Source: Pseudomonadota bacterium (GTDB lineage: Bacteria; Desulfobacterota; Desulfobacteria; Desulfobacterales; RPRI01). From it: 37,412 nt of DNA. The notes beneath the pieces are model-generated. The model was not told where the DNA came from, searched no databases, and was given only the letters and a program-made list of their open reading frames with translations. Shown here in pieces: positions 19,843 to 37,370 of this stretch. Where the stretch lies: contig JAHJQU010000222.1 in NCBI GenBank assembly GCA_018819005.1, positions 1 to 37,412 of the forward strand. Reading direction: 5' to 3'. Both the position numbers and the translations under genes were made by a program. How positions within the stretch are numbered: the first letter of the stretch is position 1; each line of letters begins with the position of its first letter.

Positions 19843-19915
19843 TGATATCTTCCCTCACCTCGTGCCGGGGCTTAATCGCCCTCGGCCTGCTGATAGACTT
19901 TTTACGAGTCCATCA
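19843..19915 (+). mobile_element. MITE family AB, cargo B, internally deleted copy (73 bp)
   Basis: TGATATCTTC left end joined directly to CCTCAC..GCCGGGGCTTAATCGCCCTCGGCC..GACTTTTTACGAGTCCATCA; flanked by AATA/AATA. Confidence 0.8.
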
Positions 19916-20800
19916 AATATCATTTTGTTTGAGTGTTTGTAAAAGCGGAAATCCCATGACCTCTCTCTGCTTTAAATAACCTTCTGCACATGCCCGCGCA
20001 AGATTTCTGATCCGCGCAATGTAACCGGTTCTTTCAGTAACACTAATGGCTCCGCGTGCATCAAGAAGATTAAAGGTGTGGGAACACTTTAAGCAGTATT
20101 CATAAGCCGGGAGTATAAGCGATTCTCCGATTATACGCATTGATTCGGCTTCGTATCTGGTAAAAAGATCCAGCAGGAAATTAATATCAGCCTTTTCAAA
20201 ATTATAAGTGGACTGCTCAACCTCCTGCTGGTGATGCACATCACCATATTTTATCACATCATTCCATTTCAGGTCATAAACATTGTCGACATCCTGGAGA
20301 TACATCGCAATCCGTTCAAGACCGTATGTTATCTCAACTGAAATGGGATGAAGGTCTATGCTTCCGGCAAGCTGAAAGTATGTAAACTGGGTTATTTCCA
20401 TTCCGTCAAGCCATACCTCCCATCCGAGACCTGAAGCCCCAAGGGTTGGAGATTCCCAGTCATCTTCAACAAACCTTATATCATGATCAAGAGGTTTAAT
20501 TCCAAGAGCCTTCAGACTCTTAAGATACTGCTGCTGAACGTCGAGTGGTGAAGGTTTTAGTATTACCTGGAACTGATAGTAATGCTGAAGCCTGTTGGGA
20601 TTTTCTCCATAACGGCCATCGGTAGGTCTTCTGGAGGGCTGGACATAAGCGACATTCCACGGCTCCGGCCCTAATGCCTTAAGCAGGGTTGCAGGATGAA
20701 AAGTCCCGGCGCCGACTTCCATGTCATATGGCTGGACCAGAACGCATCCCTTGCGGGCCCAGAATTTTTGCAACGACAGAATAACTTCCTGAAAATTCAT
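19913..20800 (-). CDS. glyQ: Glycyl-tRNA synthetase alpha subunit
   Basis: [55 protein letters not shown]. Confidence 0.99.
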
Positions 20801-20835
20801 GTTTCATACCTCATATGTAAAAATCAAATATACAG

Positions 20836-21903
20836 TTATTGTTTTACCGAAAGACCTTTATAATCTATACCGAATTCAAGCAAACCGGCCCCTTCCCTTC
20901 GCGATAATATCGATTCCCATCTGTCTTTCAATCTCTCAATATCACTGGCTTCACCAATGGCCCATATGCAGCCTCCACCTCCTGCGCCTGTAAATCTTGC
21001 TCCACATCCGTTTTTCCGGGCCGACATTATGAGTTTGCGCCCAATCTCATCCACAACATCCGGCGTCATGCTTCTTCTTATCGCGGTCTCCTGATTCATA
21101 AACGACGCAGCGTCATGGAATTTACGGTTTGATACCGCGTCAACAAACCTGCCTGTACACACAACTATTTCATCCCAGAGATCGCGGTATTTTCCGGAAA
21201 CAAACTGATTGACCCACTTGCCATTGATATTTTTTGATTCATGCGGAACGCCACAATATGCAAGAAGAATATTTTTTTCAAAATCATTTAAGAATTCCTT
21301 TTTAAATATGCTCTTTTTCACAAACCCGGGGCTTTTCGTTCCATCTTTCCAGAACCATGCATTCACCCCTCCAAACGCTGCAGCCAACTGATCCTGCAAT
21401 CCGCAAGGCACACCCGCGACACTCTGCTCAATTGCATGGGCAAGAAAAACGGCTTTCTGCCTCGAGAAGGATTTCTGCCCTGATTTTTCAGATATTTTTA
21501 AAAAACCCGCGACAAGGGCTACGGCTGCCGCCGAAGATCCTCCCAGAGCGCTTCTTGGCGGAGACGATGACTCAATTACAATATGGACTCCGTCTGCATT
21601 GAAAAACGACGAGATAGCAAATACAAGCCCTAGAGGGTGATTAAAAGGAGCTTTGCGCGAAGCAAACACCGTGCTCCTGAAACCCCGCGAAGAAACCTTG
21701 ATCTTCCCATCTTGAAATGGGAGAAGATAAATCCTTGTTCTTAAATCTATTGAGATATTAAAAGTGCATGGATTAAGGTGCATCAGGGGATAATAGAATG
21801 TACTTATATCCAGTGTTCCCCCCATATCTATCCGGCACGGAGCGGAAATTGCAATCTGTTCTGCCTTTATCAAATCTTTAAAATTATCCGGCATTGTATA
21901 CAT
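20836..21903 (-). CDS. GHMP-family sugar kinase (HddA/galactokinase-like)
   Basis: SAPCRIDMGGTLD, PPRSALGGSSA, GLQDQLAAAFGG, GARFTGAGGGG. Start at ATG 21903 or 21894; the ORF-track extension to 21972 is MITE sequence. Confidence 0.85.
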   Translation of the reverse strand: MYTMPDNFKDLIKAEQIAISAPCRIDMGGTLDISTFYYPLMHLNPCTFNISIDLRTRIYLLPFQDGKIKVSSRGFRSTVFASRKAPFNHPLGLVFAISSFFNADGVHIVIESSSPPRSALGGSSAAAVALVAGFLKISEKSGQKSFSRQKAVFLAHAIEQSVAGVPCGLQDQLAAAFGGVNAWFWKDGTKSPGFVKKSIFKKEFLNDFEKNILLAYCGVPHESKNINGKWVNQFVSGKYRDLWDEIVVCTGRFVDAVSNRKFHDAASFMNQETAIRRSMTPDVVDEIGRKLIMSARKNGCGARFTGAGGGGCIWAIGEASDIERLKDRWESILSRREGAGLLEFGIDYKGLSVKQ

Positions 21904-21915
21904 CCGAGTCAATTT

Positions 21916-22070
21916 TGATACCTTCGTAAAAAGTCGAAATCCAGACGGCAAAGTAAAAAGCTCATTATGCAAGGCGCACGAATCTTGAGGAATGAAGCGT
22001 ACTTACTGGTACGCTGCAATGACGAAAGATGAAGCGCAACACAGCAGAATGACTTTTTACTAAGCCGTCA
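21916..22070 (+). mobile_element. MITE family AB, cargo A copy 1 (155 bp)
   Basis: TGATACCTTCGTAAAAAGTC...GACTTTTTACTAAGCCGTCA; flanks ATTT/ATTG; near-identical to 35895-36047 (reverse) and 32119-32257. Confidence 0.88.
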
Positions 22071-22100
22071 ATTGTTATATCCAAAGAGATTGCTACTCCA

Positions 22101-22868
22101 TCATTTCTTTCTAATCTGTCTTAAAATTTTAAGACTTTGCATCTCTTTGCCAAGATTATAAGTCACAAAAGCCTCTAAAAAGTTCAACCCTCCCTCTAAA
22201 GCTAAAGAGGTAAATCTTATTTTTCCGGCCTTTTTCAAATCGCCGCTATCAACCCAAAGAAGCTGCTTAATCGTTCCTTTTGAAAGAGAAAGCCGGTTTC
22301 CGGAGTTTCCGGTGCATTTCCGGCAAACAACCCCCCCTTTTTGAAAGTCGAAGGATATATGTTCTTCCCTTATACTGTCAACTGCAAGCTGACACATGCT
22401 GCAACGAACTAAATTCGGACAAATACCGGCTATCGAAGCAAACCGCATCTGGAAAAGTATGCTCAATATTTCCGCAGAAACATGGCCTGAATCAATTTGT
22501 TCAAGAACATAATAAAGCAACCGGTAAAGCCGTTCCTGTTTCGCATCATTTTCAGCCCAAACATTAACTATTTCTGACCAGTAACTTGCATATGCTGTTT
22601 TATTGAAATCAGTTCTGATATCCGCAAGGCAATTTATTAGATCAGCCTCCTGCAGAATAACAAGATTCCCTCCCCTCCCGGAACTGCAAACCACATCCAA
22701 AACAGAAAATATTTCGAGGATTCCTCCGAATCTTTTTGTGCTCTTTTTAGCCGACTTTGCTATTGCCGCTATCTTGCCTCTTTCCATGGTAAATAGAGTT
22801 AAAATTAAATCGTAATCTCCATAATCAATGCGCCTGAGAACTATCGCAGGAGATGAAAAGGTTTTCAT
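22101..22868 (-). CDS. recO: DNA repair protein RecO
   Basis: AIVLRRIDYGDYDLILTLFT..RGKI.AIAK.AKKS.KRF; CxxC...CxxC zinc finger. Confidence 0.93.
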   Translation of the reverse strand: MKTFSSPAIVLRRIDYGDYDLILTLFTMERGKIAAIAKSAKKSTKRFGGILEIFSVLDVVCSSGRGGNLVILQEADLINCLADIRTDFNKTAYASYWSEIVNVWAENDAKQERLYRLLYYVLEQIDSGHVSAEILSILFQMRFASIAGICPNLVRCSMCQLAVDSIREEHISFDFQKGGVVCRKCTGNSGNRLSLSKGTIKQLLWVDSGDLKKAGKIRFTSLALEGGLNFLEAFVTYNLGKEMQSLKILRQIRKK

Positions 22869-22872
22869 CTAC

Positions 22873-24225
22873 TTATATTCCGAGAAGGTGTGTTGCAATA
22901 ATAAAATAGATAGATACGCTTATAATGTCGATTGCGGTAGTAACAAAGGGGCCCGTGGCAACAGCGGGATCAATATTGATCCTTGCAAATATCATCGGAA
23001 CCATTGAGCCGGATAAGGCTGCCAGTGTCATTGAACAAACAACGGCAATACCAACGGATAAGGCAAGGTTGAAGGTGCTGTAACTAACCTGAGCAAAAGT
23101 AGCTATAAGCACTCCATAGATAATGCCCAGAAATAACCCTATAAGAAGTTCTTTCAGTATAATGGGCCACATATCTCTGATATTAAGTCGTCCTGTTGAA
23201 AGACCTCTTACAACAATTGTAGAGGACTGAATTCCAATGTTCCCACCCATCCCCATAATAACCGGAATAAAAGCTGCTAGATAGGCAATTTTATTTAAAG
23301 ATCCCGTAAATCGCCCGATAATAACAGATGCTATGATACCGCCAACACAACTAGCAAAAAGCCAAGGCAGCCGCAGCCTGGAACTCTTCAAAACAGATTT
23401 GGTTTCAATAAATTCTTCGCCGACACCGGCCATCTTCAGCATGTCTTCTGTGGCTTCACGTCGGAATATATCAATGACATCATCAACAGTAACAATGCCT
23501 ACAAGCTTATTCGAATCGTCAACAACAGGTACGGCCAGAATATCATATTTCGCCACAATTTTTGCTACTTCTTCCTGATCCATGGCAGTATGGACAGAAA
23601 AAACGTCCCTTGTCATAAATTCTTTTAACGGTTTATCGGGAGGAACAACGACAAGCTGTCTTAAAGAGCTGACGCCAACGAGTTTACCGTATTCGTCAAC
23701 AACATAAAGATAAAAGGGCATTTCAACATCAAGATTTTCCTTCTGCAGAGATTTTATAGCCTCTTTCGCAGTAGTATCCTCTTTCAGGGCTATAAAATCG
23801 GGCACCATGATCCCACCGGCTGTGTCATCTTCGTATCGCAGCAGACCTTCGACTTCTTCAGAACCCTCCTTCTTCATCTTGTCCAATATCGAATCTGATA
23901 ATTCCTTTGGAAGTCGCCCTATCAGATCCACCACATCATCTGTGGGCATATTCTCCAGAATCACTGCTATGTCGTCAATTTTCAGCTCGGAAATGAGTTC
24001 TACGGAGGTATCTTCATCAAGTTCGCTGAGCAGGACTCCTTTTTTTTCAACCTCTTTTATCATGTCAAAGAGCCTGCGCTGATTTGAAAGGGAGAGTGCT
24101 CTGAATACCTGAGATAAATCAGCTGCATGTGTCTTGTTCATTATTTTGCGGAGATGAGAAGTTGCTTCACGGCGGAGCAATCTTTTTACGCTTTCAATGA
24201 GTATTTTTATTCGATCCCCTTCCAT
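22873..24225 (-). CDS. mgtE: Magnesium transporter MgtE
   Basis: MgtE N-domain, CBS pair (TAGGIM, GIVTVDDV), RLPWL, GMGGNIGIQS, DPAVATGPFVTT. Confidence 0.97.
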   Translation of the reverse strand: MEGDRIKILIESVKRLLRREATSHLRKIMNKTHAADLSQVFRALSLSNQRRLFDMIKEVEKKGVLLSELDEDTSVELISELKIDDIAVILENMPTDDVVDLIGRLPKELSDSILDKMKKEGSEEVEGLLRYEDDTAGGIMVPDFIALKEDTTAKEAIKSLQKENLDVEMPFYLYVVDEYGKLVGVSSLRQLVVVPPDKPLKEFMTRDVFSVHTAMDQEEVAKIVAKYDILAVPVVDDSNKLVGIVTVDDVIDIFRREATEDMLKMAGVGEEFIETKSVLKSSRLRLPWLFASCVGGIIASVIIGRFTGSLNKIAYLAAFIPVIMGMGGNIGIQSSTIVVRGLSTGRLNIRDMWPIILKELLIGLFLGIIYGVLIATFAQVSYSTFNLALSVGIAVVCSMTLAALSGSMVPMIFARINIDPAVATGPFVTTAIDIISVSIYFIIATHLLGI

Positions 24226-24288
24226 ATCAAACCTGCCCGGATTTATCTGTTTCAGTTGTAAATTATAAAAGACTTCTGCCCTGTCTAA

Positions 24289-25002
24289 TCACGGAATCTG
24301 AATGTTTGCGGCACGGCCGCTTTCCCTCGCAATATCATATGCCTTTTCATTGAAGCTTAATTTGATGGCGCCTGCATCTCCTACAAGCAAGTTATAGCCG
24401 CTTGATGCGTTAAGTTCGAGAAGATCCCCGCTTTTTAAAATATATTCTTTAGGATTCTGTCCATCAATAATTAACTTCAGCCATGTGTCCTTTACGGCAA
24501 GTACTTTTAACGATAGTTTTTCGTCGGGTTTTTTTAAACTTTTTTCATCAATCACCTTTTGTTTAATATCTGCCGATCGATTTTTCTGTTTAATAATCTC
24601 TGCGGGTCCGGTCTTATCAGATAAATCATAAACCGAAGCAACCGAAATTATTACGATGCACAAAAAAGCCCCGAAAATCAAAAAGATTTTATGCCAGTAC
24701 CTTAAACCGGCTTTGTTTAATACTTTCTCCGGCTTAATCATTTTATTGATAACACCTATAGATGCGAGATACCGCCGGACAGCTTCGTCTCCATCTGCAT
24801 CGACGGCCTTTGCATAAGAACGCAAAAAACCCTTTACGAAAACCTCTGGAGGAAGCTTATCAACCTGTTCATTTTCTATTAATGAAAGACAATCTATACC
24901 TATTTTTGTTTCTCTTGACAGCTCCTCAAGCCCAATTCCTTTCTCTATTCTGAAAGCCTGAAGATAATGCCCGAATGAAAATGATTTGTTTTCGGAAATC
25001 AT
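24289..25002 (-). CDS. RodZ-like HTH membrane protein
   Basis: N-terminal HTH (LPPEVFVKGFLRSYA), one TM segment, C-terminal DUF4115-like domain (TWLKLIIDG, VGDAGAI). Confidence 0.85.
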   Translation of the reverse strand: MISENKSFSFGHYLQAFRIEKGIGLEELSRETKIGIDCLSLIENEQVDKLPPEVFVKGFLRSYAKAVDADGDEAVRRYLASIGVINKMIKPEKVLNKAGLRYWHKIFLIFGAFLCIVIISVASVYDLSDKTGPAEIIKQKNRSADIKQKVIDEKSLKKPDEKLSLKVLAVKDTWLKLIIDGQNPKEYILKSGDLLELNASSGYNLLVGDAGAIKLSFNEKAYDIARESGRAANIQIP

Positions 25003-25062
25003 ATGTTAAAATCAACATTAATAAGGTTTATCAGGTATTGTCTCGATATGGAAACTTAAACT

Positions 25063-25091
25063 GTGTCCGGACTTTGTTTCCGTCCGGATAC
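25063..25091 (-). terminator. Stem-loop directly after the surA-like stop codon
   Basis: GTGTCCGGAC-9 nt-GTCCGGATAC; weak U-tract. Confidence 0.5.
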
Positions 25092-26077
25092 TATTTAATA
25101 ACTTTTATATGGGATTTTTGCCTTAAATCCCCGATCCAGGATTCAAATTTTCTTTCAACTACTTCACCAAAAAGGATATCCTGTATTTCAGGAGTAACCT
25201 CTTCAAGAGATTTGTCCGGTTTTTCTTCAATTTTTTCTATGTAAACAATCTGATATCCGACTTCGGTTTCAACAACTTTCGTAAAATCACCCGCTTTGAG
25301 TCCCTTTATTGCCTCCTGTATCTCCGGAGATAATTCATTATATTTAAACATTCCTAGATCCAGATTCTTTACATCAAATTCAGAGTCAGCATATTCCTTG
25401 CCGACATCCTCAAATATTTGCCCCATCTTTAATTTGTTATAAATTTCTTCCATCTTTGACCTGATATTCTGTTTTTCACCATCGCTGACACTCAACCCGA
25501 CTCTCTTGACCATATTTTTAAGATTGTATGTTTTTTCTCCCCGGTACTTCTCAATATTGCTGTTGTAATAAGACTTTATTTCATCTCCCGTTATAATTAT
25601 TTTGGATTTAACCGCAAAATTAAGAAGTTTTGACCTTATGAGATGTTCCTTAACCTTATTGCGATAGCCTTCCATAGACATGCCTTCTTTGGCCAGCATA
25701 CTTCTTAAGTCTTCGTCTGTATAATGATTGACCTCTTTGACTCGCTCAATAGCGTTATCAAGCTCCTTCTCGCTAACTGAAATACTGTACTTTTTACTCT
25801 CCTGGTCGGTAAGCTTCTGGTTAATAAGCTGTTCAAGCATATCTTCCCGAACCTTAAAGAGCATCTCGCGTTCTTTTTCCGGCGGATATCCAAGCGATTT
25901 CATTCTTTCAGCATATGGATTAACAGCACTGGAAAGTTCCGAAAGGGAAATTATTTCTTCGTTAACCACTGCTACAACCCTGTCAACAACTTCAGCGCTG
26001 TTTGTTCCGCTATACGCGTAGGAACCAGACAAAATTAAGAAAAAGATGAGCGTTAATATTTTATTATATTTGTGCAT
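25091..26077 (-). CDS. SurA-like periplasmic chaperone / PPIase
   Basis: Signal peptide, VVDRVVAVVNEEIISLSEL (SurA N-domain), parvulin-like segment DLGMF...LSPE...GYQIV. Confidence 0.88.
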   Translation of the reverse strand: MHKYNKILTLIFFLILSGSYAYSGTNSAEVVDRVVAVVNEEIISLSELSSAVNPYAERMKSLGYPPEKEREMLFKVREDMLEQLINQKLTDQESKKYSISVSEKELDNAIERVKEVNHYTDEDLRSMLAKEGMSMEGYRNKVKEHLIRSKLLNFAVKSKIIITGDEIKSYYNSNIEKYRGEKTYNLKNMVKRVGLSVSDGEKQNIRSKMEEIYNKLKMGQIFEDVGKEYADSEFDVKNLDLGMFKYNELSPEIQEAIKGLKAGDFTKVVETEVGYQIVYIEKIEEKPDKSLEEVTPEIQDILFGEVVERKFESWIGDLRQKSHIKVIK

Positions 26078-26155
26078 TTTATATTTTTCTCTCCATAATT
26101 ATACTGTTGGTATCTGAATTACTTTTCCGGCAACGATATTTATAAGGAACGATAT

Positions 26156-26317
26156 TGATACCTTCGTAAAAAGTCAATAAATGACTTTTTACTTGGCGGG
26201 AAATCCGCCTAGGCGGACTCTCCCGCCGCTTGAAGTGAATTCAAGCGGTTCCACCCTCACACCGGGCCGGGGCTTAACCGCCCTCGGCCTGTTGATGGAC
26301 TTTTTACGAGTCCATCA
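26156..26317 (+). mobile_element. MITE family AB, cargo B copy 1 (162 bp, five tandem hairpins)
   Basis: Left end identical to the cargo-A copy at 21916 (TGATACCTTCGTAAAAAGTC); right end GACTTTTTACGAGTCCATCA; flanks TAT/TAT. Confidence 0.88.
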
Positions 26318-26331
26318 TATATTCCGTCACT

Positions 26332-27051: not shown

Positions 27052-27083
27052 AATTACAGGTTCTTCTCTCAACCAACTGGAGA

Positions 27084-27121
27084 AAGGGTCCCAGGATTCA
27101 GGGTTTTCAAGTGTTTGTTTC
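27084..27121 (+). repeat. Degenerate repeat shared with 36266-36378
   Basis: AAGGGTCCCAGGATTCAGGGTTTTCAAGTGTTTGTTTC versus ...ATTCAGGGGTTCAAGTGTTTGTTTTC. Confidence 0.5.
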
Positions 27122-27158
27122 TTATGAATTTATCTTCGGCATTCTTTAATACAGGTAT

Positions 27159-30100
27159 TCAGCCGTTAACACGTTGGATAATTTCTTTCAAGATGTTTTT
27201 GGCTTTCACAATGTGCCCCATAATGCTTTGTTTCGGGAGTCTTACCTTAAGGACATGCTCCGGAGTGAACTCGAACCGGTTTTTATCCGAGATAACCATT
27301 TTTATTATACCAGAAGTGTTATTTACATAAGACAGCTCGGCAAAATGAAGTAAAAGTTGCTGATCCCGTAAATCGAGGCGTTTAACACCTGCTTTTTGAG
27401 ACAATATCTTCAGCATGATTTTCAAGAGAAGATTGGAGGCTTCTTCCGGGAGGGCTCCGAAACGATCTGTGAGTTCCGCTTTAAAGTCTGCTATCTCCTT
27501 AACTTCCGTCATCTTTGCCAGGCGCCGGTAAGATGTCAGGCGCTGATCAATATCAGGCATATACGATTCGGGAAGATAAGCTGATATTGAAACATTTATC
27601 TCCGGATCCATGGTTTCCTGAACAGGTTCTCCCTTAAGCTCCGACATGGCATTTTCCATTAACTTGAGAAACATTTCGTACCCGACGGCAGCTATATGTC
27701 CGGACTGGGAAGCTCCGAGTATCGTTCCTCCTCCTCTGATTCTCAAGTCGCTCATAGCAATCTGAAATCCTGATCCAAGATCGCTGTGTTCCATTAATAC
27801 TTTCAAGCGTTTTTGAGCGTCCTTTGTGATAGAGCTCTCTTTAGGGATAAAAAGATAAGCATAAGCCTGCTCATCAGATCTTCCTACCCTCCCGCGCAAC
27901 TGATAAATCTGGGACAGTCCCAGTTTGTCAGCCCTGTTTACCAGTATTGTGTTAGCTGAAGGGATATCAAGTCCGGATTCGATAATTGTTGTGCAGACAA
28001 GCATGTCAATTTCTTTTTTCATGAACTTGAACATAACATTTTCAAGCGCCTCCTCATCAAGCCGCCCGTGAGCGATATCTATCCTTGCCTCTGGTACAAG
28101 CTCCTGCAGCTTACGGGAAATCTTTTCAATCGTATAAATATTGTTGTGGACAAAAAATATCTGGCCTTTTCTGCTCAGCTCTTTTTTTATCGCCCCGGCA
28201 ACGACAGCATCATCAAATTCTGAAACATATGTAATTATAGATTGCCGATGTTCGGGAGGTGTTGAAATTATACTGATATCACGCACACCCATTAAAGACA
28301 TGTGCAATGTTCGTGGAATCGGTGTTGCAGTAAGAGCAAGAACATCTACGGTATTTCTTAATTTTTTAAGCTTTTCCTTATGCTTGACTCCAAAACGCTG
28401 CTCCTCATCGAGCACAACAAGTCCGAGATCCTTAAAGACAACGTCATTCTGGAGAAGCCTATGAGTTCCGATAACAATATCTATCTTCCCGGATTTCAGA
28501 TCCGAAATTATTGTTTTTTGATCCCGGACGGACCTGAATCTGCTGAGGCATGCAATGTTAACCGGATACCGCTCAAACCGTAAGTTAAAAGTCGCAAGAT
28601 GCTGTTCGGCAAGAACTGTCGTCGGAACCAGCATCGCAACCTGCTTGCCGGAATTAACCGCGAGAAAGGACGCCCTTAAAGCCACTTCTGTTTTGCCGTA
28701 GCCGACATCTCCGCAAACCAGCCTGTCCATAGGCATCGGCCGTTCCATGTCATTCAAAACATCATCTATTGCCTGAAGCTGGTCTGTTGTTTCTTCGTAT
28801 GTGAAACCCGCCTCAAAATCTTTAAAATAGCTGTCCGGCATTCCATATCCATATCCGTCGCTTACTTTTCTGAGTGCGTATAATTTAAGAAGTTCTCCGG
28901 CAATTTTTTCAGCCGATTTTTTTACTCTTTCTTTTATTTTATCCCAGGCCTTTCCACCCATTCTGTCAAGAACAGGTTCCATACCATCAACGCCCATATA
29001 CTTATGGACTATGTTCATCCTTTCAACAGGAAGGTAAAGTTTATCACCGTCCTTATATACTATCAGCAGAAAATCATTGGTTGAACCGTTCAACTTCAGC
29101 TTTACAAGCCCTTCATACTGACCTATTCCATGATCATCATGTACAACAAGATCCATTTTTTTCAAGTCTTCAAAGGAGAGAATCTGGGATACTGTTTTCC
29201 TTACCGAATCCCTTCTTCTGCTTTTTTTTGCCCCGAATATTTCATCTTCGGTTATTATGGACAGTGATTCTTCGGGCCAAACAAATCCTGAAGAGATCCG
29301 TCCGATGCAGACAAAAACGTCCCCCTTCCCGCGGGAAGTAACAGAAAATCCTTCTTTTGTTTCCATTTGAATCCCATAAGGCGTTAAAAGAGACCTGATC
29401 CTTTCGGCTTGAGATTTTGTGCTGCAGACAACCAGGGTAGTATATTTGGAAGTTTTATTTTCACTGATCCGTTCGGCAAGCGGCAAAAGGTGATTATCTT
29501 TTTCTATATGGTACTTGATTTCCTGAATCAGCAGATTGTTATTTTTTATAAAATAATCGCATTCTAAACTGCACCCGTTTTTCTCTTCATTTTCGCAGAC
29601 AATTTTGAGAGCCCGGAAATTCAAAGTTTTCTTTGAGTTTATTATTTCACGTATATTCGCCCATGTAAGATATAAGCTCCCGGTTTCGACACACAGCCTC
29701 CGATCCGCACGGGCAGAAATATAATTATTTAATTTCCGCCTCTCTACTTCTTCCGCTTCCTTTTGGAGCTGTTCCGGTTCATCCTGTACAAAAAGAGTGT
29801 TTTCGGGAAGATAATCAAAGAAAGAATCAGGCTTTGAATAAATAAACGGAATCAGGCTTTCAATATCCGGAAGCACGCCCTCTCTTTTTATTCTGTCGAT
29901 TAAATCTCTGACTGTTGTAACAGGAATATCAAGCTTCGAAGCCTGTTCTCTTATCCTGCTTATTATTAAATTAAGATCCTCGGTATTATAAATCGCTTCC
30001 CTTGCAGGAAGTATAACTGCCTCGGGTATATTTTTTAAGGTCCTCTGGCTTGATGCGGAAAAAAACCTTATTGACTCCACCATATCGCCCAAAAACTCGA

Positions 30101-30680
30101 TTCTCAGCGGATCAGGATAAGAAGGTGTAAAAATATCGAGAATTCCACCCCTTACACAATAATCTCCGGACTCTTCAACTATCATTGACCTGGAATATCC
30201 GCCCGAAACCAGTTTCTCAAGAAGTCGTTCCCTGTCTGTTTCTTCGCTCTCCATCACAAGTTCAGCGAAACTGAACAATTGCTGTTTTGGAGTCAGCTTC
30301 TGAAGAAGAGCTTCCGGAGTTGTGACAATTACCGGTGGAGTATCACTTGTTGCAATCTTATATAGCGTATTTATCCGGGTTGCAGCAGTTTCATTGTGAT
30401 AAGAGACAAATTTAAATGGAGAATCATTATATGGCGGGAAAAGCAGCACGGGAATTGTGTGTCCGGTTGAAAAAAAAATCAGATCCTGTATAAAACGCTC
30501 TCCCTCCTTAACTGAAGGGAAAATAACTACAACAGGCATCCTGCACTTCAGATAGTATCTTGATACTATGAATGCTTTTTCTGAACCGGACAATCCTGTA
30601 AGATCTGCCGCTTTTTCTCTCGTGGAAATATATTCATAAAGAGAATCGAAGGAATAATTTTTCTCTTGATTTTGATACAT
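27159..30680 (-). CDS. mfd: Transcription-repair coupling factor Mfd
   Basis: VRGGILDIF, CGDVGYGKTEVA, DEEQRFGV, TATPIPRT, QLRGRVGR, DLRIRGGG. ATG 30680 chosen because the longer ORF-track start lies inside the tRNA. Confidence 0.97.
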   Translation of the reverse strand: MYQNQEKNYSFDSLYEYISTREKAADLTGLSGSEKAFIVSRYYLKCRMPVVVIFPSVKEGERFIQDLIFFSTGHTIPVLLFPPYNDSPFKFVSYHNETAATRINTLYKIATSDTPPVIVTTPEALLQKLTPKQQLFSFAELVMESEETDRERLLEKLVSGGYSRSMIVEESGDYCVRGGILDIFTPSYPDPLRIEFLGDMVESIRFFSASSQRTLKNIPEAVILPAREAIYNTEDLNLIISRIREQASKLDIPVTTVRDLIDRIKREGVLPDIESLIPFIYSKPDSFFDYLPENTLFVQDEPEQLQKEAEEVERRKLNNYISARADRRLCVETGSLYLTWANIREIINSKKTLNFRALKIVCENEEKNGCSLECDYFIKNNNLLIQEIKYHIEKDNHLLPLAERISENKTSKYTTLVVCSTKSQAERIRSLLTPYGIQMETKEGFSVTSRGKGDVFVCIGRISSGFVWPEESLSIITEDEIFGAKKSRRRDSVRKTVSQILSFEDLKKMDLVVHDDHGIGQYEGLVKLKLNGSTNDFLLIVYKDGDKLYLPVERMNIVHKYMGVDGMEPVLDRMGGKAWDKIKERVKKSAEKIAGELLKLYALRKVSDGYGYGMPDSYFKDFEAGFTYEETTDQLQAIDDVLNDMERPMPMDRLVCGDVGYGKTEVALRASFLAVNSGKQVAMLVPTTVLAEQHLATFNLRFERYPVNIACLSRFRSVRDQKTIISDLKSGKIDIVIGTHRLLQNDVVFKDLGLVVLDEEQRFGVKHKEKLKKLRNTVDVLALTATPIPRTLHMSLMGVRDISIISTPPEHRQSIITYVSEFDDAVVAGAIKKELSRKGQIFFVHNNIYTIEKISRKLQELVPEARIDIAHGRLDEEALENVMFKFMKKEIDMLVCTTIIESGLDIPSANTILVNRADKLGLSQIYQLRGRVGRSDEQAYAYLFIPKESSITKDAQKRLKVLMEHSDLGSGFQIAMSDLRIRGGGTILGASQSGHIAAVGYEMFLKLMENAMSELKGEPVQETMDPEINVSISAYLPESYMPDIDQRLTSYRRLAKMTEVKEIADFKAELTDRFGALPEEASNLLLKIMLKILSQKAGVKRLDLRDQQLLLHFAELSYVNNTSGIIKMVISDKNRFEFTPEHVLKVRLPKQSIMGHIVKAKNILKEIIQRVNG

Positions 30681-30710
30681 AAACAAAGTACCTATTTTGA
30701 CCTGTGATAT

Positions 30711-30786
30711 GCCGGCGTAGCTCACTTGGTAGAGCAGCTGATTCGTAATCAGCTGGTAGGCGGTTCAACTCCGCCCGTCGGCTCCA
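30711..30786 (+). tRNA. tRNA-Thr (anticodon CGT)
   Basis: Acceptor GCCGGCG/CGTCGGC, D-arm GCTC..GAGC, anticodon arm GCTGA-TTCGTAA-TCAGC, T-loop GGTTCAACT, encoded CCA; 76 nt. Confidence 0.97.
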
Positions 30787-30795
30787 TTAATTTTC

Positions 30796-30826
30796 AAGGG
30801 TTTCCTGCCTTTCCGGAAACCCTTTT
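30796..30826 (+). terminator. Intrinsic terminator of tRNA-Thr
   Basis: AAGGGTTTCC-tgcctttcc-GGAAACCCTT followed by TT. Confidence 0.8.
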
Positions 30827-30934
30827 ATATTAGATAAATTTATATCAATAAGTATTCTGAATGAAATCCTTAATATGAAATATTTTTATCCCATATTATG
30901 GCATTGTGCAACCTTGTTTGACCAATTATCACTT

Positions 30935-31096
30935 TGACACCTTCGTAAAAAATCAAAAACCGATTTTTTACTTGGCGGGAAATCCGCATAGGCGGACTCT
31001 CCCGCCGCTTGAAGTAAATTCAAGCGGTTCCACCCTCACCCCAGGCCGGGGCTTAATCGCCCTCGGCCTGTTGACGGACTCATAAAAAGTCCGTCA
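30935..31096 (+). mobile_element. MITE family AB, cargo B copy 2 (162 bp)
   Basis: Colinear with 26156-26317; flanks ACTT/ATTT; the loop of the terminal 25-bp palindrome is inverted. Confidence 0.88.
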
Positions 31097-31256
31097 ATTT
31101 TGTCCGCAGCAACCAATTATCATAAAATGTTTTTTGCCATTTTTACCGGAAGCTTACACGACAGAAAATGTCAATTCACGATAATATGTTGATATTATAT
31201 AGGTTTATCATGTACTCATATCCGGACACTTACTGAATTTTTCTTTCTTTAATTTC

Positions 31257-31285
31257 TTGACATAGATTCATTATCCGTATATTTT
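31257..31285 (+). promoter_or_regulatory. Possible sigma70 promoter upstream of ORF 31445
   Basis: TTGACA-17 bp-TATTTT in an AT-rich region. Confidence 0.4.
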
Positions 31286-31354
31286 AGATACTTACATGGT
31301 TTTGTAATATATGATATATATATCAATGATGAGCTATCTTCCGGCTTGGAATTT

Positions 31355-31425
31355 GAGAGCTTTAAATAACTCACGTTCGTCATGTCATAGGATACGGGTA
31401 TAGATTGATGTTATGCAAAGGTTTT
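31355..31425 (+). mobile_element. MITE family C copy 1 (71 bp)
   Basis: GAGAGCTTTAAATAAC...GTTATGCAAAGGTTTT; 5-bp flanking duplication AATTT/AATTT. Confidence 0.8.
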
Positions 31426-31444
31426 AATTTGAAACAGGAATTAA

Positions 31445-31783
31445 ATGAATTGCATAGATGCTGTTGAAGGAACAGCTAAAACTATAATTGACGGGCTTTT
31501 CCGCCTTTTTATTGAAAATAATCTTGACGATACTGAATACATTCGAAACATCAAGGCAGTTATGGATTCAACTGATGTTTTTTTACAAAATAACAGGGAA
31601 ATAGCTGATAGTCCTCATACTCTTAAGAGAGTCCTTTATGAACATGCAAAGGATTTATGGCTGAATAATCTTTTAAATAAATTCGAAACCGATAACGCCA
31701 ACAGCGAGCATATTCCCGATAATATTGAATATAATGGATATTCTTTCGATTATATTTACAACCACGGAACATATCCTCTATAA
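31445..31783 (+). CDS. Hypothetical protein (112 aa)
   Basis: ATG with AGGA upstream; protein-like, probably helical sequence with an aromatic C-terminus (YSFDYIYNHGTYPL); no family recognised. Confidence 0.7.
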   Translation: MNCIDAVEGTAKTIIDGLFRLFIENNLDDTEYIRNIKAVMDSTDVFLQNNREIADSPHTLKRVLYEHAKDLWLNNLLNKFETDNANSEHIPDNIEYNGYSFDYIYNHGTYPL

Positions 31784-31824
31784 AGATATTGTTGACGGTT
31801 TGCATATGGTCGGGGCAGTTTAAA

Positions 31825-31953
31825 ATGAATGATTCCGAAGAAGATTCAAAATTGAAAGCCGAAATGGATGAAATATTAATTAAGATTGATAATATAATTG
31901 AAAAAATTGAAAGTTCCATGCCTCCTGAAAAGGATGACATCAATAACGAATAA
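31825..31953 (+). CDS. Possible small acidic coiled-coil peptide (42 aa)
   Basis: Hand translation: MNDSEEDSKLKAEMDEILIKIDNIIEKIESSMPPEKDDINNE*; amphipathic pattern; weak RBS. Confidence 0.4.
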   Translation: MNDSEEDSKLKAEMDEILIKIDNIIEKIESSMPPEKDDINNE

Positions 31954-31986
31954 CATGGGAAATGCCTTACGGCTATTATTTATAAT

Positions 31987-32257
31987 TGCTGGACTCGTAA
32001 AAAGCAATTTTATGCCGTAAACGGCATCCTGTGAGAAACGAAGTCAAAACCGGATAAAATTAACATTATTAAAGAATATTAAATATTTATGTCCGGTTTT
32101 TGAATTTGACTTCGTTGGAAGTCGAATTTCAGACGGCAAAGTAAAGAGCTCATTATGCAAAGCGCACGAATCTCGAGGAATGAAGCGTACTTTCCGTACG
32201 CTGCAATGACGAAAGATGAGGTGCAACACAGCAGAATGGCTTTTTACGAAGCCGTCA
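31987..32257 (+). mobile_element. MITE family AB, extended cargo A copy (271 bp)
   Basis: TGCTGGACTCGTAAAAAGC...GGCTTTTTACGAAGCCGTCA; TAAT/TAAT duplication; extra ~110-bp hairpin module before the cargo-A body. Confidence 0.85.
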
Positions 32258-32309
32258 TAATTGGAGAATTACATCTATCTGCAAGAGAATATGACTATTA
32301 GGAGGTGCC

Positions 32310-32594
32310 GTGGCGTTAACTAAAAATGACATTGTTGCTAGGGTGCATGAACTTGGCTTTACCAAGAAGAAATCGGTCGAGATCATTGAGTCACTGCTTG
32401 AAATTATTAAAAATAATCTCGAAAAAAGTGACGATGTTCTGATCTCTGGTTTTGGAAAATTCTGTGTAAAGAATAAGAATCAAAGAAGGGGCAGAAATCC
32501 GGCCACTGGTGACGATCTTCTTCTCCGGGAAAGAAAGGTGGTTACCTTCAAATGCTCGGGCAAATTGAGAGATAAAATAAACGCCGAAGGCTAA
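32310..32594 (+). CDS. ihfA: Integration host factor alpha subunit
   Basis: MALTKNDIV, VLISGFGKF, RRGRNPATG, RKVVTFKCSGKLRDKIN; AGGAGG RBS, GTG start. Confidence 0.9.
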   Translation: MALTKNDIVARVHELGFTKKKSVEIIESLLEIIKNNLEKSDDVLISGFGKFCVKNKNQRRGRNPATGDDLLLRERKVVTFKCSGKLRDKINAEG

Positions 32595-32676
32595 TAGATT
32601 AAATATCAAATAGCTGTATTATTTTTTGCCTGGGGCGGATCAAGTGGATTCTCACGGTAGCCATCTCAGGCAGAAT

Positions 32677-32748
32677 GAGACCTTTGAATAACTCACGTTC
32701 GTCATGTTGTGTGATATGGCGATAGATCAGATGTTATGCAAAGGTTTC
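32677..32748 (+). mobile_element. MITE family C copy 2 (72 bp)
   Basis: GAGACCTTTGAATAAC...GTTATGCAAAGGTTTC; 5-bp duplication AGAAT/AGAAT. Confidence 0.82.
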
Positions 32749-32801
32749 AGAATATACAATCACAGCCCTTGCAACTTTAAATAATCATGATTCGCCATTG
32801 A

Positions 32802-34187
32802 TCAAAGCTTGATATTATAAGCCTTTATTTTGCTCAAAAGTGACGGATGGCTTATTTCAAGAAGGCGGGCTGCTTTTGTTCTGTTGCCTCCCGTTGAATT
32901 GAGAGCTTTTTCGATTAGCTTCTTCTCAATGACAATCTGCGCTGCTTTTAATGAATACCCTCCGAAGACATCACCATATTCTATGCACGATTTTATTCCC
33001 GGTTCAGGGAGAAAATTCTCAGTCAGAAGAACAGGCCCTTCTGCCAGCACAACTGCCCTTTCAATTATGTTTTCAAGCTCCCTGACATTACCGGGCCAGT
33101 CACGCTTCAGCAAGAGTGCCATGGCAGTAGGAGATATGCCTTTGATTTTTTTTTCAAATCTAACATTAAGCCTGTTTATAAAATGTTCACATAAAAAAGG
33201 AACATCTTCCATTCGTTCTCTGAGAGGCGGCAACTTTATTGCAAAAACATTGAGCCTGTAATAGAGATCCGGGCGAAAAGCAGAATTTTTGATCTCATCT
33301 TCAAGATTTTTTGAAGTGGCAGCTATAACCCGAACATTAATTTTTTTTGTTTTTGAATCCCCCACCGCCCTTATTTCGTTCTCCTGCAAAACACGCAGAA
33401 TTTTCACCTGTAAAGAAAAGGGAAGTTCTCCGATCTCATCCAGAAAAATGGTCCCACCGTCGGCTTCCTCAAACAGGCCTTTTTTATCCTTTTCGGCTCC
33501 CGTAAAAGCACCTTTTTTATATCCAAAAAGCTCGCTTTCAAGCAGATTTTCTGGTATTCCACCGCAGTTAACGGGAACAAAATTTTTTTTCGCCCGCAAT
33601 CCACCGAAATGAATCCCCTTTGCAATGAGCTCTTTACCGGTTCCGCTTTCACCCGATACCAATACCGTAGTATCATACTGGGCTGCTTTAGCAGAAAGAT
33701 TAAAAACTGACAGCATGCTCCTGCTTTTGGCAACCATCTTGCCGAAAGAATACTTCTCCTCTATTTTTCTAATCTGTTCCTGAAGAAAAAGGTTCTCCCT
33801 CTTTAAACTTTCTCTCTCCTCGGCTTTCTTCAGTGCAAGAAATACCTCATCAGCCTTGAACGGTTTTGAAATGTAATCGTAGGCGCCCTCTTTCATGGCC
33901 TCAATAGCGGTATCTATAGTGCCGTATGCCGACATCATGATAACAGTCGTCGAACCTATTTTATCTCTGGTTCTTTTAAGAAAATCCATCCCGTTCATTT
34001 TAGGCATTTTTATATCGCAGAGGATAAAGTCATACCTCTCTTTGTCAATCATACTGAGCCCCTCGAGCCCATCCGCAGCAGTATCAACAACATAACCGGA
34101 TTTTTTCAGCATTGCTGTCAGCATGTGACGCATATTCTCTTCATCATCAATTACAAGAAGCCGCTTTTTATTGTTTTTATTTTCCAT
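32802..34187 (-). CDS. Sigma54-dependent response regulator (NtrC/AtoC family)
   Basis: Receiver domain, GESGTGKEL, ESELFG..KGAFTGA, FLDEIGE, WPGNVRELEN, Fis-type HTH. Confidence 0.95.
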   Translation of the reverse strand: MENKNNKKRLLVIDDEENMRHMLTAMLKKSGYVVDTAADGLEGLSMIDKERYDFILCDIKMPKMNGMDFLKRTRDKIGSTTVIMMSAYGTIDTAIEAMKEGAYDYISKPFKADEVFLALKKAEERESLKRENLFLQEQIRKIEEKYSFGKMVAKSRSMLSVFNLSAKAAQYDTTVLVSGESGTGKELIAKGIHFGGLRAKKNFVPVNCGGIPENLLESELFGYKKGAFTGAEKDKKGLFEEADGGTIFLDEIGELPFSLQVKILRVLQENEIRAVGDSKTKKINVRVIAATSKNLEDEIKNSAFRPDLYYRLNVFAIKLPPLRERMEDVPFLCEHFINRLNVRFEKKIKGISPTAMALLLKRDWPGNVRELENIIERAVVLAEGPVLLTENFLPEPGIKSCIEYGDVFGGYSLKAAQIVIEKKLIEKALNSTGGNRTKAARLLEISHPSLLSKIKAYNIKL

Positions 34188-34224
34188 AGGCCGGTCAATC
34201 CTGTTAAATGTTTTTTATCAGATG

Positions 34225-35781
34225 TTATCCTTGAACATTCTCATTGCTAAGAGGAAGATAGACTGACATGGTAGTGCCTTCTCCATCGACACTTTGGGCT
34301 TTAATCTTCCCCCCCATACCATCAAGAAGCGCAAAACTTACAAATAATCCAAGCCCCGTTCCCTTTCCAGGCTCCTTTGTTGTATAAAACGGATCAAAGA
34401 TATTGCCTATGTTCTTCTCAGGAATACCGGATCCATTATCTATAAATGATATTTTTAATACGGGCAGGTCATTTATTGCCTCATTATCCGATTCGGAAAC
34501 CACCTCACTCTTAATCAATAACTTACCTCGAAGTTTGTTTTGAGATGATGAGATAGCATCGGCTGCATTTATAATAAGATTTATAAATATCTGTCTTAAT
34601 TGATTCGGATCAGTCAGCACCTTGTCTTCTCTGGCTTCAAGAGATATTTTCAAATCAATACCGGACGTAAAAGGCTGGAACCTGACAATCTCAGCAACAT
34701 CTTCAATTACTTCATGTACATTTATAATTTCGGGTTTTCCTTCAGACGGCCTTGAAAAATCCAGAAGCTGCCTGATTATGCCGTTTACCCTGTTAATCTC
34801 GTTCTCGGCCCTTTTGATATATTCATTTTTCTCATCATCGGGCATATCCTTTTGCTTTAAAAGCTCCAGATAGCCTATAATTATTCCGATAGGATTTCCG
34901 ACTTCATGAGCAATTCCTGAGGATAGCCTTCCAACAGAAGCCAGTTTTTCCGCCATGACAACATCTTTTTGTGCCTGCTTTAAATCAATATTTGCTTTCT
35001 CAAGAGAGCTTATGGTTGCCAGGAGTTTTTCCTTGTCTTCAGAAACTCTTTTCAACAGCCGGTTTAAAGCCTTTGACAGCCTGTCAAACTCATTGTCATG
35101 TTTTCCGTCTAAAAAAAAGAAGTCATCTTCCTCCCTGAACTCTTCAGCCCTTTTGACCATTCTTTGAACCGGCTTAACTGCAATATTTAATATAAGATAA
35201 AGTCCTGTTATTGTTAGCACAAACAGATTGATGACAGAATAAACGAATAGAACCTTTTGTGTGCGTCTTAAAACCTTATATATATCCTCAAGCTCCATAA
35301 CAATACCGACTCCGGCTTCGGCATGGCCTTCTATAAGCAGGGGCGCCGAAACAACAAGGTAACGATTCTGCATCCAGAAAACTCCCCACGCTGTTCCCGT
35401 AAATCGTGTCATTTTTCTTGAAGATTCAATTGACTCTTCAACAATAATCCTAATCTCATCAGACATCGGGCAGTCCGGACTGGCGGGATACAGCATATTC
35501 GAATATCTGTCCTGTATTATAGCGCAGGAAAAGCCGGCCATATTCAGAATTACGTCAAGCTTGTCACTGTAATCAGGTTGCAGAATTAAAATGCCGGAAT
35601 CGAGCTTTTTTATCAGATGTTTCTCTATGTCGTAAGCAAGAAGATATCCTTTTGAAATGGCGGATTGCACATAATCTCTTTGCGCTGTTATAACCATTAT
35701 TATATCAACAAGAAGCATTGCAACAGCCAAAAGAATTGCAATTTTAATGGCGATATTGGTTTTTATCCCGTGAAAAGCCAC
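34225..35781 (-). CDS. Membrane sensor histidine kinase (cognate of the sigma54 regulator)
   Basis: Two TM segments, HAMP-like linker, AHEVGNPI, NLIINAADA, DNGSGI, FDPFYTTKEPGKGTGLGL. Confidence 0.93.
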   Translation of the reverse strand: MAFHGIKTNIAIKIAILLAVAMLLVDIIMVITAQRDYVQSAISKGYLLAYDIEKHLIKKLDSGILILQPDYSDKLDVILNMAGFSCAIIQDRYSNMLYPASPDCPMSDEIRIIVEESIESSRKMTRFTGTAWGVFWMQNRYLVVSAPLLIEGHAEAGVGIVMELEDIYKVLRRTQKVLFVYSVINLFVLTITGLYLILNIAVKPVQRMVKRAEEFREEDDFFFLDGKHDNEFDRLSKALNRLLKRVSEDKEKLLATISSLEKANIDLKQAQKDVVMAEKLASVGRLSSGIAHEVGNPIGIIIGYLELLKQKDMPDDEKNEYIKRAENEINRVNGIIRQLLDFSRPSEGKPEIINVHEVIEDVAEIVRFQPFTSGIDLKISLEAREDKVLTDPNQLRQIFINLIINAADAISSSQNKLRGKLLIKSEVVSESDNEAINDLPVLKISFIDNGSGIPEKNIGNIFDPFYTTKEPGKGTGLGLFVSFALLDGMGGKIKAQSVDGEGTTMSVYLPLSNENVQG

Positions 35782-35894
35782 CGTCAGATCCGCCGGTTTT
35801 AATGGTTTGAGAAAAATGTTTAACTGTGATTTATTATTACAATATAATCCCTATTTCTTGCAACAGCTAAACAGAATTGATCATGAATTAACAA

Positions 35895-36047
35895 TGACGG
35901 CTTCGTAAAAAGCATTCTGCTGTGTTGCGCTTCATCTTTCGTCATTGCAGCGTACCAGTAAGTACGCTTCATTCCTCAAGATTCGAGCGCCTTGCATAAT
36001 GAGCTTTTTTTTTGCCGTTTGAATTTCGACTTTTTACGGGTATATCA
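35895..36047 (-). mobile_element. MITE family AB, cargo A copy in reverse orientation (153 bp)
   Basis: Reverse-complement match to 21916-22070; ACAA/ACAA duplication. Confidence 0.88.
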
Positions 36048-37258: not shown

Positions 37259-37370
37259 AGCTATATTCGTAAAAAATCCAGCCACTCCCTTGAAAACGGA
37301 AGTCCAGAACTATTTAAATAACTGGATAGCATATGTGCTTCACTACGTGCCCCGATTTCATATCCGGGGC
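37259..37370 (+). repeat. Decayed family-AB left end followed by REP-like cargo
   Basis: AGCTATATTCGTAAAAAATC (15/20 to the AB left end), then CACTCCCTTGAAAACGGAAGTCCAG..CTGGA and GCCCCGA..TCCGGGGC palindromes; no right end seen. Confidence 0.45.

What the first reader, a model, noticed from the sequence alone, without database searches (positions are those of the whole stretch)
19843..36047. Modular MITE system: one shared pair of ends carrying interchangeable hairpin cargos
Seen in sequence: six intergenic elements (19843-19915, 21916-22070, 26156-26317, 30935-31096, 31987-32257, 35895-36047) share ~20-bp imperfect terminal inverted repeats with TGA...TCA ends (TGC at the left end of one copy) and core CGTAAAAAGTC. 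The copies at 21916 and 26156 begin with the identical 20-mer TGATACCTTCGTAAAAAGTC but have unrelated interiors (cargo A versus cargo B). Flanks show 4-bp duplications: exact in three copies (AATA, TAAT, ACAA), 3/4 in two (ATTT/ATTG, ACTT/ATTT) and only TAT/TAT in one. Established knowledge: TIRs plus a short TSD are the hallmark of DDE transposition. Inference: this is a non-autonomous family mobilised in trans whose ends capture and shuffle structured modules. Six copies in ~16 kb suggest a high genome-wide copy number. I cannot tell whether it has already been described.
Basis: partly seen in the sequence, partly recalled or inferred. Interest (0 to 1): 0.8.

Follow-up and report, generated by a model that had tools for sequence, protein, structure and literature searches.

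The report
Self-stacking MITEs that swap hairpin cargo
These repeats are small gene-less mobile elements whose ends and 4-base target duplication match a 1.9-kb insertion sequence that likely moves them; each insertion rebuilds the target, copies stack side by side, and ends and hairpin interiors are re-paired, likely by collapse of such stacks.

Summary
Real, and mostly as described. The genome has 463 such ends (9 in a shuffle) and 118 paired elements; 33 of 117 show an exact 4-bp duplication (2.2 expected). Five of the six window sites are empty in close relatives. The same ends bound an 1882-bp IS with a 536-aa IS1182-like DDE transposase in a same-genus genome; this genome holds 13 near-identical end fragments of that IS at contig breaks. 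The target, T[CT]A-NNNN-T[AG]A, mimics two abutting ends, and IS and MITE copies stack with the same 4-mer at each junction. At least seven interiors, none IS-derived, share the ends: one is a known REP dimer, and cargo A is a covarying hairpin that also occurs between IS5-type ends in other genomes. In cargo A elements the outer 27 bp vary about five-fold more than the body, and one copy carries the IS's own first 26 bp. Corrections: copy 1 has only a 10-bp left stub; copy 4's right core is inverted. Verdict: new variant of a known kind (MITEs of an IS). Transposition and the stack-and-collapse mechanism are inferred, not tested.

The parts
19843..19915 (+). Element 1: internally deleted cargo-B copy; ~10-bp left stub, intact right end 19896-19915; AATA/AATA duplication; its last three bases are the stop codon of glyQ (ORF 19913-20800, - strand)
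   Evidence: same site holds a similar stub in G007 and a 47-bp-type cargo-less element in G010
21916..22070 (+). Element 2: A155 = 27-bp cap (21916-21942) + 128-bp hairpin with its own inner left end (from 21943) + right end (22051-22070); ATTT/ATTG
   Evidence: empty in 5 of 5 close relatives aligned and in one contig of run X8
26156..26317 (+). Element 3: B162 = cargo-less mini element (end + 7 nt + decayed inverted end) + hairpin cargo B + palindromic right end
   Evidence: empty in G001, G009, G010, G012, a 25-bp stub in G007
30935..31096 (+). Element 4: B162 with the loop of the terminal palindrome (31072-31096) inverted; about 150 bp downstream of tRNA-Thr
   Evidence: shared with G001, absent in G009, G010, G012
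31987..32257 (+). Element 5: composite of cargo E + collapsed junction palindrome (32107-32123) + cargo A; TAAT/TAAT
   Evidence: the same E and junction are followed by cargo D on contig C293; absent in G001, G009, G010
35895..36047 (-). Element 6: A-type copy in the opposite orientation; ACAA/ACAA
   Evidence: absent in G001, G007, G009, G010; the more distant G003 has a truncated cargo-C-like copy at the same position
37259..37360 (+).
   Evidence: seen in sequence; below the 14-bit threshold

Best explanation
These are several MITE families that share the 20-bp ends and 4-bp target duplication of a 1.9-kb IS1182-like insertion sequence, whose DDE transposase likely moves them in trans; copies stack end to end, and collapse of such stacks likely re-pairs ends and interiors. 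Steps: (1) shown: the IS and the MITEs have the same ends and duplicate mostly 4 (sometimes 5) bp. (2) Shown: the reconstructed target is T[CT]A-W-NN-W-T[AG]A, which is what two abutting ends (..TCA-NNNN-TGA..) look like, so each insertion leaves a target on both sides. (3) Shown: IS and MITE copies abut with the same 4-mer at each junction; inferred: they are steered there beyond the 10-bp consensus. (4) Inferred: in a stack, deletion between the directly repeated end cores, or across the junction palindrome, gives a hybrid with one element's outer end and the other's interior, still flanked by the duplication. (5) Inferred: the interiors are foreign hairpins (a REP dimer, shells of small nuclease cassettes, cargo A), not IS remnants. 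No host function is needed; the terminal TGA can replace a stop codon, which makes insertions at gene ends harmless.
For: Full IS in G008 with TAAT duplication and 536-aa transposase; both ends score >=12 bits in 20 of 25 near-full-length transposase loci. G000 holds 7 left and 6 right IS-end fragments, each 134-141 bp from a contig break; 4 pairs share a 4-mer. Target consensus from 63 reconstructed sites. 14 back-to-back junctions spaced 4 (11) or 5 (3) bp. 5 of 13 IS ends abut another end, whereas 3.3% of 2216 strict-consensus sites do. In G168, 5 of 6 IS loci abut a MITE; in L060 and L061 the MITE's older duplication has one mismatch and the IS copies its right-hand 4-mer exactly. In 20 A155 copies, diversity is 0.44 at left positions 4-9 and 0.40 at 21-27 against 0.08 in cargo and right positions 4-9; in 50 copies left 4-9 is linked to the adjacent spacer (p 0.004) but not to the central loop (p 0.64) or length class (p 0.74). 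The A copy on C516 begins with the IS's first 26 bases; the C copy on C342 carries the GGTCCC of the IS end it abuts. E+A and E+D share one collapsed junction. Interiors give one 14-bp match to the IS. 46 of 386 outer ends close a long ORF against 2.3% of control TGAs.
Against: No transposase of this IS is assembled in G000 (0 matches), and no movement was observed. Only 33 of 117 duplications are exact and 54 match at 2 or fewer of 4 positions. The 13 IS ends are not independent (about 7-9 insertions). The fixed cap length (8 nt before the inner GAC in 48 of 50 copies) is not explained by random deletion. Different cargos at one site (4 clear cases of 42 sites) fit independent insertion at a hot spot as well as exchange in place. 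High cap diversity could also reflect old, unconstrained positions. The IS ends show no second binding site like the MITE's inner end.
Confidence: 0.72

Rival explanations
1. Same transposase, but cargos enter by another route: hairpin modules are copied into the gap between ends during repair after excision, or REP-type modules are inserted into empty 47-bp shells by their own enzymes; stacking is incidental. Not exclusive of the best explanation.
For: Cargo-less 47-bp elements exist (C273, C416, one in G001). The cap equals the first 27 bp of such a shell. A GIY-YIG gene between NTS-like REPs sits behind a good left end on C478. Di Nocera 2013 describes REP dimers inside longer palindromes (PMC3733652, passages).
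Against: Insertion into a shell should leave the shell's own right end after the cargo's; A155 has only one right end. It does not explain an IS-derived cap on C516 or the shared collapsed junction in E+A and E+D.
Confidence: 0.18
2. Host regulatory elements: paired binding sites for a global regulator or nucleoid protein, with structured RNA interiors kept by host selection (the reading given to similar repeats in Geobacter metallireducens).
For: No copy lies inside a long ORF (0 of 106 A, 0 of 44 C). Cargo A covaries strongly and tolerates G-U pairs on one strand.
Against: Present/absent between close relatives with one copy of the duplication in empty sites; same ends on an IS; no sense/antisense bias for A (18 against 23, p 0.53); spacer types match background.
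Confidence: 0.06
3. A REP-like family spread by an HUH (RAYT) enzyme or a site-specific recombinase acting at TCA-NNNN-TGA, with the IS likeness secondary.
For: Cargo D is a REP dimer; the target is palindromic and end-like; G000 has 3 Y1_Tnp matches.
Against: 4-5-bp duplications are not made by HUH or conservative recombinases (established knowledge, recalled); no cargo scored near the 3 Y1_Tnp matches (two lie at contig ends); a DDE IS has the same ends.
Confidence: 0.04

Closest known systems
Type I MITEs moved by an IS with the same terminal inverted repeats (PMC3542288, PMC3733652, passages)
   Same: Short, non-coding, inverted ends, target duplication, high copy, intergenic, cognate IS.
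   Different: At least seven unrelated interiors on one pair of ends, none derived from the IS; outer 27-bp cap re-assorts against the body; cargo A also occurs between ends of another IS family.
Geobacter metallireducens 'class 1 global regulator binding sites' with ISGme8/ISGme9 (PMC2700814, passages and supplement S7)
   Same: 24 pairs of inverted sites about 75-145 bp apart with unrelated interiors, and IS copies at a fixed distance beside them.
   Different: Different end sequence (GTTGCTYN repeats); read there as regulator sites, with no duplication or empty-site analysis.
Gmet_R1001-1024 'predicted short RNA elements' (PMC2700814 supplement S4) and Pcar_R2xxx (PMC3543383 supplement passage)
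   Same: By eye the same central palindrome as cargo A (R1022 and R1023 have GCGGCGTAC-loop-GTACGCCTC) and similar arm motifs; not scored.
   Different: No TGA...TCA ends; not described as mobile cargo.
CGTC-1 REP / dRS3 / NTS dimers and Ssn GIY-YIG nucleases (PMC3733652, PMC11893778, passages)
   Same: Cargo D is a head-to-head dimer fitting the NTS consensus; G000 has GIY-YIG genes between such arms (C478, C59).
   Different: Here the dimers are nearly always wrapped in IS ends (16 of 19 with at least one end).
IS30 dual target specificity (PMC9333248, abstract)
   Same: Inserts at hot spots or next to its own inverted repeats; forms tandem dimers.
   Different: Other transposase family; here the hot-spot consensus is itself the end-to-end junction and the spacer is the 4-bp duplication; circles not tested.
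IS1182 family (ISPse1: 1653 bp, 4-bp DR, PMC3281130 table; IS1272 and palindromic targets, PMC4923244 passages)
   Same: Single ORF, DUF772 + DDE_Tnp_1_6, 4-bp duplication, palindromic target.
   Different: Scores 157.5 bits against the NCBIfam cut-off of 270: a divergent clade, not formally a member.
Mobile insertion cassettes (MICs) of Bacillus cereus (named in PMC3281130; details recalled)
   Same: IS ends enclosing unrelated DNA.
   Different: MICs carry genes; these carry 7-230 bp of hairpins, with one partial gene-bearing case.

Membership tests
MITE | Short, non-coding, multicopy | tested here: met
   115 paired elements of 47-295 bp clustered; 463 ends
MITE | Terminal inverted repeats | tested here: met
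   12-16 of 20 identical in window elements 2, 3, 5, 6; elements 1 and 4 are damaged
MITE | Target-site duplication and empty orthologous sites | tested here: met
   33 of 117 exact against 2.2; 18 of 42 testable sites called empty, 8 of them shorter by exactly element + 4 bp
MITE | Cognate IS with the same ends | tested here: met
MITE | Mobilisation in trans by that transposase | not testable with these tools
   needs a transposition assay
IS1182 family (partner IS) | Single long ORF with DUF772 and DDE_Tnp_1_6, acidic catalytic residues | tested here: met
   D152, D356 and E485 are among 18 invariant acidic positions in 31 close homologues; their catalytic role is inferred
IS1182 family (partner IS) | Passes the NCBIfam IS1182 model NF033551 | tested here: not met
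   157.5 bits, cut-off 270; still the best of 4 models hit
IS1182 family (partner IS) | ISfinder assignment | not testable with these tools
   ISfinder is not available
CGTC-1 / NTS REP (cargo D) | CGTCATTCCCGCG-MAV-GCGGGAATCYRG arms in head-to-head dimers, linked to a GIY-YIG gene | tested here: met
   sequence match by eye; arms flank GIY-YIG genes on C478 and C59
MIC / passenger-gene cassette | Gene enclosed by two intact IS ends with a duplication | tested here: inconclusive
   C478: left end 22 bits, right end 2 bits, no duplication; 2 of 10 GIY-YIG and 0 of 20 PF13366 loci had a left end >=10 bits
Any Rfam family | Match at gathering score | tested here: not met
   only tRNA in the window; nothing credible in 8 loci
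IS30-like copy-out/paste-in elements | Circular intermediates with an active end-to-end junction | not testable with these tools
   only assembled contigs were available

The most novel reading that the evidence does not exclude
A two-tier mobility system in Desulfobacterota: DDE insertion-sequence ends act as general carriers with an exchangeable ~27-bp cap, swapped by a defined, possibly transposase-directed, crossover; what they carry is a second layer of single-strand hairpin elements (REP-ssn and PD-(D/E)xK cassette shells, and cargo A). Cargo A would be an uncatalogued conserved ssDNA/RNA structure with its own unknown partner enzyme that has moved between IS1182-like, IS5 and further end families while keeping the cap + inner-end layout.
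Probability: 0.3. Interest if true: 0.72.

Novelty: new variant of a known kind. Interest (0 to 1): 0.5.

Why it matters
It names the transposase clade behind one of the most abundant repeats of this bacterial group (cargo A alone matches about 3800 stored stretches of the GTDB collection, estimate) and gives a testable account of how new MITE families arise: a target that insertion rebuilds, then stacking and collapse. It recasts repeats that were annotated in Geobacter and Pelobacter as regulator sites or small RNAs as probable mobile DNA. It links MITEs to REP and Ssn biology. A small transposase system that would re-target its own ends and tolerate any interior down to 7 bp could be useful for stacked gene insertion. 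The repeats and the IS also explain contig breaks in these MAGs.

Tried and rejected
Assembly artefact: rejected; contigs of independent runs cross the element junctions (X2, X3, X5) and G001 shares element 4. Interiors as IS deletions: rejected (one 14-bp hit). Variable end positions copied from the target: no clear excess over permutations in 124 comparisons. A second transposase site inside the IS ends like the MITE's inner end: not found in 20 loci, best inner score 1.3 bits. Gene-carrying elements between ends 350-5000 bp apart in G000: 6 candidates, host genes or short ORFs between unrelated ends, none with an exact 4-bp duplication. C518/C366 as a second IS: they are a duplicated response-regulator region behind a lone end. 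A gene-bearing parent of cargo A in G000: not found. RAYT link: no cargo near 3 Y1_Tnp matches. Orientation bias to host genes: none for A or C; B 0 of 5 sense, p 0.06. Terminator or promoter role: none of the 16 terminator-like sites falls in the elements and their number matches shuffles; promoter-like sites 56 against 38.9 in the whole region, not pursued. Pair-finding gave a bonus to duplications, so its duplication count is not used as a test. Literature: no paper held all of 'miniature inverted', 'Desulfobacter', 'transposase', 'intergenic'; searches gave only the analogies cited. The TGA ends were not seen in the passages returned from P. carbinolicus supplements or in G. bemidjiensis supplements (3 of 15 files not searched, and spaced letters can defeat the search). 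A paper id recalled for the Siguier 2015 IS review was wrong, so that review was not read. ISfinder and subscription journals could not be checked.
Full report
Observation. The six stretches are present as written and lie between housekeeping and signalling genes (glyS/glyQ, GHMP kinase/recO, two SurA-like genes, tRNA-Thr, an IHF/HU-like gene, a histidine kinase). Four have two good ends. Element 1 keeps only about 10 bp of its left end, and element 4 has the loop of its terminal palindrome inverted. A seventh, decayed copy starts near 37259. Rfam finds only the tRNA.

Genome scale. A matrix built from 266 pattern hits (13 in a shuffle) finds 463 ends at 14 bits or more, against 9 in one block-shuffled genome, and 118 paired elements. 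Of 117 with full flanks, 33 have an exact 4-bp duplication (permutation mean 2.2, maximum 8 of 2000), 63 match at 3 or more positions (14.9), 7 have 5 bp (1.0); 54 match at 2 or fewer. An exact end pattern occurs in 16 of 16 same-genus genomes and 5 of 14 other genomes of the order. Record titles of related loci suggest Desulfobacterota; this is an inference.

Empty sites. Sites 2-6 of the window lack the element in most close relatives; site 1 is occupied in G007 and G010 and differs wholesale in the others, so it has no clean empty allele. I compared all 118 elements with 799 kb of G007 (40 stretches from the largest contigs) and 542 kb of G001 (40 stretches chosen for holding ends, hence biased to occupied sites, plus the window orthologue). 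24 and 18 sites were testable; the script called 12 and 6 empty, 1 and 4 the same, 11 and 8 different. By eye the 19 'different' are 4 with another cargo between ends (C101, C268, C289:12091 in G007; C110 in G001), 3 with the same cargo class, 6 collapsed stubs and 6 without ends or poorly aligned. G003 has a cargo-C-like copy where the window has element 6, while nearer relatives are empty, which points to a hot spot.

The autonomous partner. Thirteen near-identical fragments end 134-141 bp from contig breaks in G000. Searching with them gave a complete 1882-bp element in G008 with the same ends, a TAAT duplication and one 536-aa ORF. It has DUF772, DDE_Tnp_1_6 and DDE_Tnp_1; its best NCBIfam model is IS1182, at 157.5 bits, below the cut-off of 270. 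Homologues occur in 43 of 201 genomes of the order, not in the G000 assembly, and 5429 database proteins pass 1e-30. Both ends score 12 bits or more in 20 of 25 near-full-length loci; three of the five misses are under 32% identical.

Target and stacking. Sixty-three rebuilt sites give T[CT]A-W-NN-W-T[AG]A, the look of two abutting ends. G000 has 14 back-to-back junctions spaced 4 or 5 bp, and C365 repeats TCCT at all four borders. Five of 13 IS ends abut another end, against 3.3% of 2216 strict-consensus sites (the ends come from about 7-9 insertions and are not independent). In G168, 5 of 6 loci have a MITE against the IS, including MITE-IS-MITE and MITE-IS-IS arrays with one 4-mer throughout. 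The terminal TGA closes a long ORF at 46 of 386 outer ends, against 2.3% of control TGAs, as for glyQ here.

Interiors. Among 115 elements up to 300 bp: A 63 (two with a small palindrome inserted), C 22, D 8, B 5, F 3, G 2, four composites, and 8 unassigned, of which 4 form a C variant. They give one 14-bp match to the IS. All 107 A copies have at least one end nearby. Window elements fold with z of -2.0 to -10.9, their interiors -2.1 to -6.4. D fits the NTS/CGTC-1 consensus (PMC11893778 and PMC3733652, passages), and its arms flank GIY-YIG genes on C478 and C59; C478 also has a 22-bit left end but no convincing right end. C-like arms flank a PF13366 gene on C14 (score 41, reached by 6 of 1000 random windows; the label GxxExxY for this family is recalled); most of 20 such loci lack them.

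Modularity. One left-end motif is found on the IS and on A, B, C, C2, D, E and F. A155 is a 27-bp cap plus a 128-bp hairpin with its own inner end. In 20 copies the cap's free positions are about five times as diverse as the body; in 50 copies there are 27 hexamers at left 4-9 and 7 at right 4-9, and the cap is unlinked to the central loop and length class, although the loop is itself variable (20 types). The A copy beside an IS end on C516 starts with the IS's first 26 bases. E+A (element 5) and E+D (C293) share one collapsed junction. Cargo-less 47-bp elements and stubs of 18-25 bp exist.

Cargo A elsewhere. A pattern for its central hairpin returned 119 loci from a partial scan (about 3800 stretches estimated). 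79 have a TGA-type right end, 13 CAGGCTG-type ends, 7 a third type, 20 other or cut. The CAGGCTG ends bound 1.3-kb elements whose transposases pass an IS5 model in 3 of 3 tested. In 33 of the 79 loci with all three ends scored, the cap-to-inner distance is 26-27 in 23, 15 have an exact duplication, and the inner end tracks the right end (0.82 against 0.70 shuffled, maximum 0.77) while the cap does not (0.41 against 0.40). An alignment of 41 loci picked by hand from 91, plus the window copy, has 97.5% of cells paired and 118 compensatory cells against 26 in shuffles, with slid controls at 7-36; the central helix was fixed by the search pattern and relatedness inflates the count. There is no orientation bias to host genes. 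By eye it resembles Gmet_R1001-1024 (PMC2700814 supplement S4).

Mechanism. Shown: shared ends, duplications, empty sites, end-like target, stacks, re-assorted caps, one cargo in several end families. Inferred: movement by this transposase (about 0.9), steering to resident ends (0.75), and stack-and-collapse as the main source of hybrids (0.6). Unexplained: the fixed 26-27-bp cap, and what selects the cargo A structure.

Comparison and verdict. MITE criteria are met except the assay. The partner works like an IS1182 element but fails the family model. Precedents: G. metallireducens class 1 sites (PMC2700814 passages and supplement S7), IS30 insertion next to its ends (PMC9333248 abstract), REP dimers inside longer palindromes, palindromic targets in IS1182 (PMC4923244 passages). 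PMC3281130, PMC3542288, PMC2996986 and PMC3543383 were read as passages with partial supplement searches for the last two. I found no description of this family in ten literature searches; ISfinder was not available. An unreviewed note of this scan (e1-9906995) reports the same pattern with a 6-7-bp duplication in another genome; I did not check it and it is not independent support. New variant of a known kind; interest 0.5.

Noticed in passing
window:37259-37360: A seventh, decayed element with a REP-dimer (cargo D) interior near the contig end.
   Followed up: partly
window:36275-36385: Another repeat type between genes: imperfect heptamer-like arms with a small CCGCC-N-GGCGG palindrome inserted; relatives carry variable versions at the same place.
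   Followed up: no
window:36074-36260: Short conserved Cys-rich ORF (CEECMHC...CKFRESCP-like) present in relatives, under the 80-aa listing limit from its ATG.
   Followed up: no
G000 many A, B and D copies (e.g. C328:540-702, C144:10405-10610): Small palindromes (CCGCC-N2-GGCGG type, and a 51-bp one) recur inserted at fixed positions inside cargos: a third layer of mobile hairpins.
   Followed up: partly
G000:C478:1002-1465 (L415): Ssn-like GIY-YIG gene between NTS-like REP arms, behind a good element left end; G004 homologue also has an end upstream.
   Followed up: partly
G000:C14:4392-4763, C506, C404, C418: PF13366 small nuclease genes each flanked by their own short repeats; those on C14 resemble cargo C.
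   Followed up: partly
L220:2301-2450, L233:397-536, L205, L215: IS5-type ends also enclose unrelated hairpins, including cargo-A-like arms with another centre and a REP-like dimer.
   Followed up: partly
window:19843-19960 against L069, L070, L072: The 3' end of glyQ and the glyQ-glyS spacer fall into two unrelated types among close relatives; the element supplies the stop codon in one type.
   Followed up: no
G000:C518:2679-3590 and C366:3020-3932: Duplicated response-regulator region, each copy starting at a lone element end, possibly a one-ended mobilisation.
   Followed up: no
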